Assembly (NCBI RefSeq): GCF_057098645.1
Contig: NZ_CM169472.1
Reading direction: 5' to 3' (one strand)
Length of the DNA stretch: 64,000 nucleotides
Made by a program: the position numbers. Below are positions 16,601 through 19,600 of the stretch, piece after piece. Numbering within the stretch: position 1 is the first letter of the stretch; every line of letters starts with the position of its first letter.

Positions 16601-19600
16601 TCAATCATTGCGTCATCAGCACGATGAGCAATGTTGTATTCGTTTTGCACACAGACGATTTCGGTAATCTTACGCGCCTCTGCAACCTGCGTCGGTGTGA
16701 CGTTGCTCAGGCCAATATGTTTTACCAGGCCTTGTTGTTGCATCTCTGCCAGCACGGTCAGGCTGGCTTCAATCGATCCTTCCGCCGGGCCATGACCATC
16801 CCCCATCATCACGCGCAGGTTAACCACATCCAGTACGTCCAGGCCGAGATTACGTAGATTATCGTGTACCGCTTTTTGCAGCTCTGCCGGAGAAAAGGCG
16901 GGCAACCAGGAAGCGTCTTCTCCACGCCGCGCACCAATTTTAGTGACAATTGTCAGGTCGTCAGAGTAAGGATAAAGCGCTTCGCGGATAATCTGATTGG
17001 TGACGTGCGGACCATAAAAATCGCTGGTATCAATATGATTGACGCCCAATGCCAGCGCCTCGCGCAGCACGGTAATAGCGACATGGCGATCTCTGGGGGG
17101 GCCGAAAACCCCAGGACCTGCCAGTTGCATCGCGCCATAACCAAGACGGTTAACGGATTTTGTACCGAGAGTAAATGTATTGCTGCTCATCGATACAGGT
17201 TGCGGTTTTTTTATTGCCAGATGCGGCGCTTGACGCGTTTTGTTTTGGTGTCTTTCAGGATAACAGAGCAACCCATCCAGTAATCTTGTTTACGCCCTCG
17301 CATTATTTATCTCTATTCATTTCTATACTGATTTTTCTTAATCCGTTTTATTACAGGGCAGGGTGCAGCGTTGCGGTTTAGGTATCACCTGCTAAAAATT
17401 AGAACGTTCAGCATCAGGACGTTACTGTTTCGGTCGCAGATTCTCATCAAATACCAGGCGCTGCCGGCCAGGTTCAACTTCCCGCAATGGCTCGACTTGA
17501 TGCAACGTCTGCTTACAGCGTGTCACCAGCACCTGATACTCATGCGTGCCCTGCTTTTTCCATGCCAGTTCCTGCTCACTAAGTTCACGAATCGCTTTGG
17601 CCGGGCTGCCGACAATCAGGTAATTAGCAGGCATTTCTGCTTTGGCTTTCACAAATGCGGATGCGCTAACAATGCTGTTCTCGCCAATCACCGCACCGTC
17701 CATCACTACCGCGTTCATTCCCACTAATGCATTGCGGCGGATAATGCAGCCGTGAAGGATAGCGCTATGACCAATATGTCCATCTTCTTCCACGACAGTA
17801 TCCTGCTCGGGAAAACCGTGCATAACGCAATTATCCTGAATGTTCGCACCATCTTTCACCACGATACGACCAAAATCGCCACGCAAGCTGGCATTTGGCC
17901 CAACGTAAACGCCCTTGCCGAGAATAACATCGCCGATCAATACCGCTGTCGGATGGACAAAGCTCTCTTCTGGCACAACCGGAGTCAGACCATCTATCTG
18001 GTAAATTGGCATAACGCCTCCTGTTCAATATTTAAGCCGCCAAAACGTTGAAAATACAGGCTTCCCGGCGCAGGCAGTTCACCGACCGAGGTTTCACCTT
18101 TTTCACTAACGAACGCTAAAGCAGCAGGCGCTACGCGCTGATAAATGTTGATACACAGCTGACGTGCCGTATGCCCTGCCCAGTGTGCCGGAAGCAACTC
18201 CTCCGGCAACAATGGGTCTTTAAGGACGACACGGCGATAAAAATGGATCAGTAAAAGCTGAATATGAAATGCACGCTCCGGGGTTAACTCGTCTGCCGTC
18301 TCTTTTAACAGCGGCACCAGCGGGCGGAATGACTGAATAAAGGTTTCGTACATGGCATTTTGTTCAGTTAAATGCCAGCACTCTTCCACTCTGGCACGCA
18401 GTGCTGCACGAGAAAGCGCCAGTGGTATTTGCGCTTCAAAACAAATCACGTTATCCGCCACACCCGCTTCATGCAAAAGTGTCTGTACATCCGCCAGTTT
18501 TTGCGACGGCGATGCCATCAGGCTGGGCGCCAGTGCACCAAAACCTTGCCAGATCAACTGCTTTTTGACATCAGCCAGCGTCGCTTTATCTAAACCTTCC
18601 GAGAGCAACAGGAGCCATTTACCATCCCATGCAGGTTGCTCTGCGCGATAAATTTTACTTTCTGCCCGTCGCGTCAGGCGCAAGCCTTTATCACTGAGGC
18701 TATAGAAACTGCGTCGCCCGATGCGGGAAACATCCAGCCAGCCTTCTTTATTAAGACGAAACAAAGCGGTGCGCACGAAACGCTCACCAAATCCCAGCCC
18801 TTCCAGCAAAGCAGCCAGACTACCCAGCCAGATTTCACCACCACGATGGGAAAGCGAATCACCATACAGAGAGGAGATCAAAGATGTGCCACTGACCGGA
18901 ACAGCGTTTACAGCATGTTGGATAAAAGTATCAAGTTTACTCATTCGATTCAGTCTGTTGTTATTGTTGTGATTTATGAATCATAGCACAGGTCGTATCG
19001 ACTTCTGGCCCTGGCGCTTTACCCCACCAGGGCCAGACGACACATCAGGCACCAACAATATTACGCAGATCAAACACCCGACACGCCTTGCCTTCTGAAC
19101 GCGGGATACTGCCACAGTTAACGATCATCACATCGGTAGAGATCCCCACCATCGACTTAATCCGATGGCGTAGCTGGTGGCACACCTGGCAACGCTGCTC
19201 ATGCGTCAATGTCAGGCTGCTTTCTTTCAGCTCTACTTTCACAGAAAGTGAATCAAGATGCCCCCGGCGGTTCACCTCCAGTTGGTAATGCGGCGATAAA
19301 AAGCGGAGATGCCTTCATGACGATCTTCTGTTGCCGCCAGCAAGGTGAATAACTGTCGCTCCTGGGCAAGTCCGGCTTGCAAAGCCACTTCCTGCGACTG
19401 GCGCAGCGCTTGCTTTGCCGCTTGTAAGGCCAGCGGCGAGTGACGTGCCATTTTCGACGCCAGCTGTAAGGCGTATTCGAGGGTTAAATCGCTGGGGAAG
19501 ACGTCGCTAACCAGCCCGGCCTGCTGTGCTTGCTGAGCGGTGATACTTTCTCCGCTCAGCACCATTTTGCTGGCTAACGATTTACCGACACTACGGATTA

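What the first reader, a model, noticed from the sequence alone, without database searches (positions are those of the whole stretch)
17191..17421. ydbA autotransporter locus absent between ydbC and paaY
From memory of K-12, the large IS2/IS30-disrupted autotransporter pseudogene ydbA sits between paaY and ydbC. Here the two genes are only ~230 bp apart with no autotransporter remnant. It is either an ancestral absence or a precise deletion; the breakpoints would tell which.
Basis: established knowledge. Interest (0 to 1): 0.3.

Follow-up and report, generated by a model that had tools for sequence, protein, structure and literature searches.

The report
Old ydbA deletion plus private inversion
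The missing ydbA autotransporter gene is an old, common E. coli deletion variant and unremarkable, but in this sequence alone the 173-175 bases just upstream of the neighbouring pdxI gene are flipped, which should remove that gene's ribosome-binding site and the terminator in front of it.

Summary
paaY (17422-18012, -) and pdxI/ydbC (16330-17190, -) are 231 bp apart.

The absence is a deletion, not an ancestral state. Window 17399-17416 keeps 18 of the last 29 nt of ydbA, including its stop codon, followed by the left arm of the ydbA terminator. The same junction occurs in unrelated lineages. It is present in 2029 of 5426 complete E. coli genomes; 3081 keep the ydbA 3' end. About 6.37 kb is missing relative to an IS-free ydbA+ allele. 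Variable ydbA carriage is already published, so this part is ordinary.

Window 17192-17366 is an exact reverse complement of the sequence in the nearest relatives (RM9872 and C325, otherwise about 99.97-100% identical), in K-12, and in the divergent alleles examined. The novel junctions were found in 0 of 5135 matching genomes, 0 metagenome contigs (control: at least 120) and 0 species-representative genomes.

The flip has no flanking inverted repeats, IS ends or nearby recombinase. It splits the terminator hairpin (-16.6 kcal/mol) and removes the pdxI Shine-Dalgarno sequence (-9.0 to +0.8 kcal/mol). It is either a private illegitimate inversion or an artefact; only read-level data can decide.

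The parts
16330..17190 (-). pdxI (ydbC), an aldo-keto reductase annotated as pyridoxal reductase / pyridoxine 4-dehydrogenase. The ORF is intact. The start codon is at 17190-17188.
   Evidence: NCBIfam NF007695, 557.6 bits. Identical to the RM9872 pdxI annotation, WP_000097817.1.
17192..17366 (.). Inverted block. It is 175 bp with each end nucleotide ambiguous (G...C), so the core is 17193-17365 (173 bp). It is the exact reverse complement of the same stretch in RM9872 and C325. It is 93% identical, in reverse orientation, to K-12 L001 12047-12220.
   Evidence: blastn. No complete genome has the window orientation joined to the pdxI start. Novel junctions are absent from metagenome contigs and genome contigs. 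The reference junction is found in at least 120 metagenome contigs.
17199..17215 (+). Displaced right arm of the ydbA/paaXY intrinsic terminator plus its T-run (GTTGCGGTTTTTTTATT). It now lies on the opposite strand, 171 bp from its partner and next to the pdxI start codon.
   Evidence: Direct repeat D5. The reference hairpin AAACCGCAAC-N10-GUUGCGGUUU+U7 folds at -16.6 kcal/mol (z = -4.3). The window junction sequences fold at -4.2 and -2.4 kcal/mol.
17219..17240 (+). Second, REP-like hairpin with a T-rich tail. In the reference it is co-directional with paaY and pdxI. Here it is flipped to the other strand.
   Evidence: Terminator-like site on the + strand in the window and on the - strand at the mirrored position in RM9872.
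17347..17366 (+). Displaced native pdxI leader and Shine-Dalgarno region (TTATTACAGGGCAGGGTGC). It now points away from pdxI and abuts the ydbA remnant.
   Evidence: Alignments. Anti-SD duplex energy of the 25 nt upstream of the ATG is -9.0 kcal/mol in RM9872 and +0.8 kcal/mol in the window.
17370..17379 (-). Left arm of the terminator hairpin (AAACCGCAAC on the minus strand). It keeps its original place and orientation.
17399..17416 (-). Remnant of the ydbA 3' end. On the minus strand it reads TGATGCTGAAC + GTTCTAA. This corresponds to K-12 ...GTGATGCTGAAC[TTCAAGAAAAC]GTTCTAA, with the 11 bracketed nt missing.
   Evidence: Alignments with the K-12, O157, B2, Eco_23-3511 and VR50 ydbA 3' ends. 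The same junction occurs in MINF_2E, FORC_028, UTAK-8 and an E2348/69 derivative.
17417..17421 (-). Deletion junction. It consists of the C that follows the paaY stop codon (17421) and 4 nt, GTCC (17420-17417), that have no counterpart in K-12 or VR50.
17422..18012 (-). paaY, intact.
   Evidence: TIGR02287, 377 bits. RM9872 annotation.

Best explanation
The locus carries two superimposed events.

(1) An old illegitimate deletion removed about 6.37 kb. It took out ynbG, the ydbA promoter region and nearly all of the BigA-like autotransporter gene ydbA. It ran from 1 nt after the paaY stop codon to within ydbA's last ~30 nt. It may have used a (A/T)GATG microhomology. The ydbA terminator was left behind to serve paaXY. 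This compact allele has since spread and is found in about 37% of complete E. coli genomes, including all close O145 relatives.

(2) On top of that, this sequence alone has a 173-175-bp inversion. It runs from the loop of that terminator hairpin to 1-2 nt before the pdxI ATG.

Shown: the inversion is exact, has at most 1 nt of overlap at each end, and is not seen anywhere else that I searched.

Inferred: it arose by breakage and rejoining (illegitimate recombination), not by a recombinase. Its predicted effects are these:
- The terminator between paaY and pdxI is destroyed, so paaXY transcripts should read through into pdxI-ydbD.
- Any native promoter in the 173 bp upstream of pdxI now points toward paaY.
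- pdxI loses its Shine-Dalgarno sequence, so PdxI translation should fall.
For: Deletion:
- K-12 gene order.
- 18-nt remnant of the ydbA 3' end plus colinear downstream sequence.
- The ydbA 3' end is conserved in alleles that are 84-100% identical.
- Identical junction architecture in five lineages, including a B2 EPEC with a divergent paaY.
- 2029 compact genomes versus 3081 ydbA+ genomes.
- 6385 nt versus 15 nt between TAAC and GTTCTAA in VR50 and the window.
- Full-length YdbA matches the BigA autotransporter models through to its last residue.
- Published variable carriage of ydbA (PMC4951805).

Inversion:
- 175/175 identity in reverse orientation to RM9872 and C325.
- 0 of 5135 genomes have the window's junction. 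All displayed rows of the K-12-based search are colinear through the spacer.
- 0 metagenome hits against at least 120 for the control junction. 0 hits in genome contigs.
- The terminator hairpin is lost. The SD is lost.
- The rest of the window looks like a natural genome: an IS629 with a 3-bp target-site duplication and a scatter of SNPs.
Against: Deletion:
- The junction carries 4 unexplained nt (GTCC) and a second 11-nt gap, so it was not one clean event.
- No true outgroup species could be retrieved. Polarity therefore rests on the remnant and on deep E. coli lineages.

Inversion:
- A single sequence with no read support.
- No inverted repeats or microhomology to suggest a mechanism.
- E. 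coli lacks classical NHEJ.
- One end falls 1-2 nt from a start codon, which could reflect selection or something artificial.
- All functional consequences are predictions. No sigma-70-like promoter was detected in the spacer in either orientation.
Confidence: 0.8

Rival explanations
1. ydbA was never present in this lineage, and the compact paaY-pdxI spacer is the ancestral arrangement. On this view, K-12-like strains gained ydbA by insertion.
For: The compact allele is common (2029 genomes) and occurs even next to a divergent paaY in a B2 EPEC derivative. The region is a known mosaic.
Against: The compact allele contains 18 nt of the ydbA coding 3' end, including the stop codon of the conserved C-terminal ...MLNFKKTF. 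ydbA sits next to pdxI with the same downstream spacer in genomes that lack the fea-paa island altogether (O157-type, B2 and Eco_23-3511). This shows that ydbA-pdxI linkage does not depend on paa.
Confidence: 0.05
2. The 175-bp inversion is not biological. It would be an assembly, polishing or data-handling artefact in the source record, and the real chromosome has the reference orientation.
For: It is unique among more than 5100 genomes and at least 120 metagenome contigs. No mechanism-revealing repeats flank it. The inverted block is 100% identical to the reference.
Against: No repeat longer than 1 nt flanks the block, so an assembler had no ambiguity that could flip it. The block lies wholly in non-coding DNA and spares both ORFs, as expected for a mutation that survived selection. 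The same window carries other private but clearly natural differences, such as an IS629 with a target-site duplication and an empty ttcA prophage site.
Confidence: 0.35
3. The block is a phase-variable invertible switch, like fimS, that toggles pdxI-ydbD expression.
For: It is a short intergenic segment immediately upstream of a gene. Flipping it removes or supplies an SD sequence and a terminator.
Against: There are no terminal inverted repeats: the plus and minus alignments overlap by only 1 nt. The neighbouring genes are pdxI, ydbD, paaY and paaX, none a recombinase. Only one orientation is seen in 5135 genomes and at least 120 metagenome contigs. The segment is single-copy.
Confidence: 0.02

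Closest known systems
K-12 MG1655 ydbA pseudogene locus (b4492; paaY-ynbG-ydbA::IS2D::IS30C-pdxI)
   Same: Same chromosomal position and same flanking genes. The sequence downstream of ydbA (terminator, REP-like hairpin, pdxI leader) is 93-98% identical.
   Different: ynbG, the ydbA promoter region and all but 18 nt of ydbA are missing here. No IS2 or IS30 is present. The 175 bp between the terminator loop and pdxI is in the opposite orientation.
Compact paaY-pdxI (delta-ydbA) allele of O145 strains RM9872 and C325 and about 2000 other complete genomes
   Same: Identical deletion junction (TAAC-GTCC-TGATGCTGAAC-GTTCTAA) and 100% identical sequence across pdxI, the spacer content and paaY.
   Different: Those genomes all keep the ancestral spacer orientation, with an intact terminator and pdxI SD. 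The window has the block flipped.
BigA/YdbA-type autotransporter adhesins (NCBIfam NF033178; Pfam BigA_N PF25784, BigA_beta PF25783)
   Same: The gene lost here belongs to this family in ydbA+ strains. The retained nucleotides correspond to its C-terminal ...MLN/(T)F-stop.
   Different: No such protein can be made from this window.
Recombinase-driven invertible promoter switches (fimS/FimBE, hyxR/FimX, Hin/Gin systems)
   Same: A short invertible-looking segment directly upstream of a gene.
   Different: No inverted repeats, no recombinase and no second orientation in the population. This is a one-off rearrangement, not a switch.

Membership tests
Compact paaY-pdxI (delta-ydbA) allele of E. 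coli | paaY stop codon followed within ~20 nt by the last nucleotides of ydbA and its downstream spacer, with pdxI ~230 bp away | tested here: met
   The junction is identical to RM9872 and has the same architecture as MINF_2E, FORC_028, UTAK-8 and the E2348/69 derivative.
Compact paaY-pdxI (delta-ydbA) allele of E. coli | Spacer colinear with the K-12 ydbA-pdxI intergenic region (terminator, then REP-like hairpin, then pdxI leader) | tested here: not met
   Window 17192-17366 is inverted. 0 of 5135 genomes share this.
BigA/YdbA autotransporter gene | An ORF encoding the BigA_N and BigA_beta domains and a C-terminal barrel | tested here: not met
   tblastn of the 1969-aa YdbA (L008) and blastn of K-12 ydbA against the whole window gave no significant hit. 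The domains of the intact protein are shown.
Site-specific invertible (phase-variable) DNA switch | Inverted repeats at both ends of the invertible segment | tested here: not met
   The plus and minus alignments abut with a 1-nt overlap. The repeat finder shows no inverted-repeat pair at 17192/17366.
Site-specific invertible (phase-variable) DNA switch | Both orientations present among isolates or assemblies | tested here: not met
   Only the reference orientation is found outside this window.
Site-specific invertible (phase-variable) DNA switch | A cognate recombinase encoded nearby | tested here: not met
   The neighbouring genes are ydbD, pdxI, paaY and paaX. A distant trans-acting enzyme cannot be excluded.
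Intrinsic (rho-independent) terminator downstream of ydbA/paaY | GC-rich hairpin immediately followed by a U-tract on the transcribed strand | tested here: not met
   Present in RM9872 and K-12 (-16.6 kcal/mol, U7). In the window the arms are 171 nt apart as direct repeats.
IS-mediated rearrangement | IS ends or target-site duplications at the breakpoints | tested here: not met
   The junction sequences are contiguous reference sequence with no extra bases. The only IS in the first 42 kb is the IS629 at 8804-10113.

The most novel reading that the evidence does not exclude
The 173-175-bp flip is a genuine, very recent, repeat-independent inversion in an O145-like strain. One break would fall in a terminator hairpin loop and the other just before the pdxI ATG, consistent with hairpin cleavage and end-joining. 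It would rewire pdxI-ydbD by removing the terminator, any native promoter in the flipped 173 bp upstream, and the SD. The vitamin-B6 salvage reductase would then depend on read-through from paaXY, or be effectively silenced.
Probability: 0.5. Interest if true: 0.3.

Novelty: already known. Interest (0 to 1): 0.18.

Why it matters
The ydbA absence has little significance.

The inversion matters only modestly:
- If real, it is a clean natural example of an inversion without inverted repeats in E. coli.
- It gives a simple natural test case for how pdxI-ydbD expression depends on its leader and on the upstream terminator.
- It shows that gene-content comparison alone can miss orientation changes inside spacers that otherwise look conserved.

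Tried and rejected
- Rfam scan of 16800-17800 at E <= 10 found nothing relevant.
- Sigma-70 promoter scans, with the tool and with my own relaxed version, found no candidate in the spacer in either orientation. I could not locate the native pdxI promoter.
- The search for inverted repeats or microhomology at the inversion ends found only a 1-nt G/C overlap. I considered template switching at the 10-bp hairpin arms and serine-invertase quasi-sites by eye. I rejected both because the junction sequences do not fit.
- I looked up two products that could only be called on the inverted allele: the 68-aa ORF 17175-17381 and a 313-aa TTG-extended PdxI. Neither is on record in public assemblies. This is weak evidence, because gene callers may never call them.
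- The outgroup search in genome contigs used the terminator pattern. It returned only E. coli-like contigs binned into MAGs and chance hits, so no true outgroup polarity was obtained.
- I searched for a genome that shares the window's private IS629 site, to find a closer relative. None exists in the collection.

Full report
**What is at the coordinates**

On the minus strand the window encodes ydbD (13960-16266), pdxI/ydbC (16330-17190), paaY (17422-18012) and paaX (17994-18944). The non-coding gap 17191-17421 is 231 bp.

The window is an O145-like E. coli chromosome. It is 99.97-100% identical to O145 strain RM9872 and to strain C325 over about 40 kb. No YdbA-like sequence occurs anywhere else in the window.

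**Deletion or ancestral absence**

Alignment to K-12 shows homology through the paaY stop codon plus one base (TAAC). On the minus strand there then follow GTCC, TGATGCTGAAC and GTTCTAA. After that the window is colinear with the sequence downstream of ydbA.

The ydbA 3' end is GGCGTGATGCTGAACTTCAAGAAAACGTTCTAA (...GVMLNFKKTF-stop). It is conserved in the K-12-type, O157-type and B2-type alleles and in the IS-free allele of VR50. The window therefore retains 18 of the last 29 nt of ydbA (17399-17416), minus an 11-nt piece flanked by AAC repeats.

Full-length YdbA (1969 aa in L008) matches the BigA autotransporter models up to its final residue. These nucleotides are thus native autotransporter coding sequence, not spacer. 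This argues for deletion.

Relative to VR50, 6385 nt between TAAC and GTTCTAA are replaced by 15 nt. A shared (A/T)GATG on both sides in ydbA+ alleles (TAAC-AGATG-TAAAAT and GCG-TGATG-CTGAAC) suggests a microhomology junction. That point is inference, and the 4 nt GTCC remain unexplained.

**How common the allele is**

2029 of 5426 complete E. coli genomes have paaY and pdxI adjacent. 3081 have the ydbA 3' end next to pdxI.

Compact alleles from MINF_2E, FORC_028, UTAK-8 and an E2348/69 derivative share the same junction architecture with a few substitutions. The last of these has a divergent paaY and a mostly deleted paa island. This indicates one old event.

Three architectures exist:
- ydbL-ydbA-pdxI without the fea-tynA-paa island (O157-type, B2 and Eco_23-3511);
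- the K-12 type, with both the island and ydbA;
- the compact type seen here.

In a B2 genome without the island, ydbL-side sequence joins K-12 sequence 13 nt after the paaY stop codon. ydbA-pdxI linkage therefore does not depend on paa.

A published pan-genome study already describes this region as heterogeneous, with full-length ydbA in about 42% of phylogroup A genomes (PMC4951805). The finding as stated is therefore correct but ordinary.

**The unexpected feature**

Window 17192-17366 aligns to K-12, RM9872 and C325 only in reverse orientation. It is 175/175 identical to the two close relatives and 93% identical to K-12. The flanking alignments abut it with a 1-nt overlap at each end, so the block is 173-175 bp with no terminal inverted repeats.

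Evidence that it is unique:
- A 190-nt query across the pdxI-side junction found 0 of 5135 matching genomes with the window's arrangement. Even RM9872 splits into two places on opposite strands.
- The K-12-oriented query is colinear through the spacer in ydbA+ and compact genomes alike.
- The orientation is the same in the deeply diverged alleles.
- They are also absent from species-representative genomes.
- Products of ORFs that exist only on the inverted allele are not on record.

No genome in the collection shares the window's private IS629 insertion either. The source strain is simply not represented in the collection.

**Predicted consequences (inference)**

In the reference orientation, the transcript leaving paaY (or ydbA) meets a strong intrinsic terminator, AAACCGCAAC-N10-GUUGCGGUUU followed by U7. 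It folds at -16.6 kcal/mol with z = -4.3. A REP-like hairpin with a U-rich tail follows, then an AT-rich leader ending in ACAGGGCAGGGUGCG-AUG.

The inversion breaks inside the terminator loop and 1-2 nt before the AUG.
- The two terminator arms become direct repeats 171 nt apart.
- The 271-nt spacer RNA loses 21 kcal/mol of predicted structure, from -70.8 to -49.5 kcal/mol.
- The second hairpin is on the wrong strand.
- The 25 nt before the AUG become AAUAAAAAAACCGCAACCUGUAUCG, with no anti-SD pairing: +0.8 versus -9.0 kcal/mol.

I therefore expect read-through from paaXY into pdxI-ydbD, loss of any native promoter in the flipped 173 bp upstream, and poor PdxI translation. No sigma-70 consensus was detectable in either orientation, so the promoter part is the weakest step.

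**Origin of the inversion**

A recombinase switch is excluded for practical purposes. There are no inverted repeats, no nearby recombinase, and only one orientation in the population. There are no IS ends at the breakpoints.

Two options remain:
- a one-off illegitimate break-and-rejoin event, where the break in a hairpin loop is suggestive but unproven;
- an artefact of the source record.

Three points argue against an artefact. No repeat flanks the block that could confuse an assembler. The block spares both ORFs. The window otherwise carries clearly natural private changes. Three points argue for it. The inversion is unique, mechanistically unexplained, and rests on one sequence. I put roughly 0.5-0.65 on it being real.

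**Verdict**

The novelty of the stated finding is nil. The private inversion is a minor but real curiosity in the sequence as given and needs read-level confirmation.

Noticed in passing
window 8804-10113 (target-site duplication GAC at 8801-8803 and 10114-10116): A 1310-bp IS629/IS1203 copy (IS3 family) with a 3-bp target-site duplication interrupts ynbD. RM9872 and C325 lack it at this position, and no complete E. coli genome shares the insertion site.
   Followed up: yes
window 19045-20030: paaF abuts a 3' remnant of paaK, which matches roughly the last 256 bp of K-12 paaK. paaG, paaH, paaI, paaJ and the 5' part of paaK are deleted, as in RM9872 and C325. The phenylacetate pathway is defunct in this lineage.
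   Followed up: partly
window 30245-31150 (feaR); 21617-22363 (paaC); 21824: feaR has an internal stop at codon 60, as annotated in RM9872 and C325. paaC and feaB are intact here. RM9872 has a 1-nt deletion at the position of window 21824 that frameshifts its paaC.
   Followed up: partly
window ~42570 onward (42570-64000): After uspF the window runs straight into ttcA-dbpA-abg-mppA core genes. The lambdoid prophage integrated at the Rac/ttcA site in RM9872 and RM12581 is absent here.
   Followed up: partly
L006 7001-12715 (O157-type strain ERL05-1306); L007 and L008: Genomes without the fea-tynA-paa island carry ydbA directly between ydbL and pdxI. In the O157-type strain ydbA is annotated as two CDSs (3036 and 2460 bp), so it is probably disrupted there.
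   Followed up: no
L131 and L133 (contigs binned as Collinsella and Bacillota MAGs); L130 ('Citrobacter sp.' MAG): L131 and L133 are 100% K-12-like E. coli ydbA-pdxI sequence lacking IS2 and IS30, which looks like E. coli contamination of MAG bins. L130 carries a ydbA homologue only ~79% identical to K-12, next to a 95.6%-identical pdxI start.
   Followed up: partly
window 17417-17420: Four nucleotides (GTCC on the minus strand) at the deletion junction are present in all compact alleles examined but absent from K-12 and VR50. Their origin is unexplained.
   Followed up: partly
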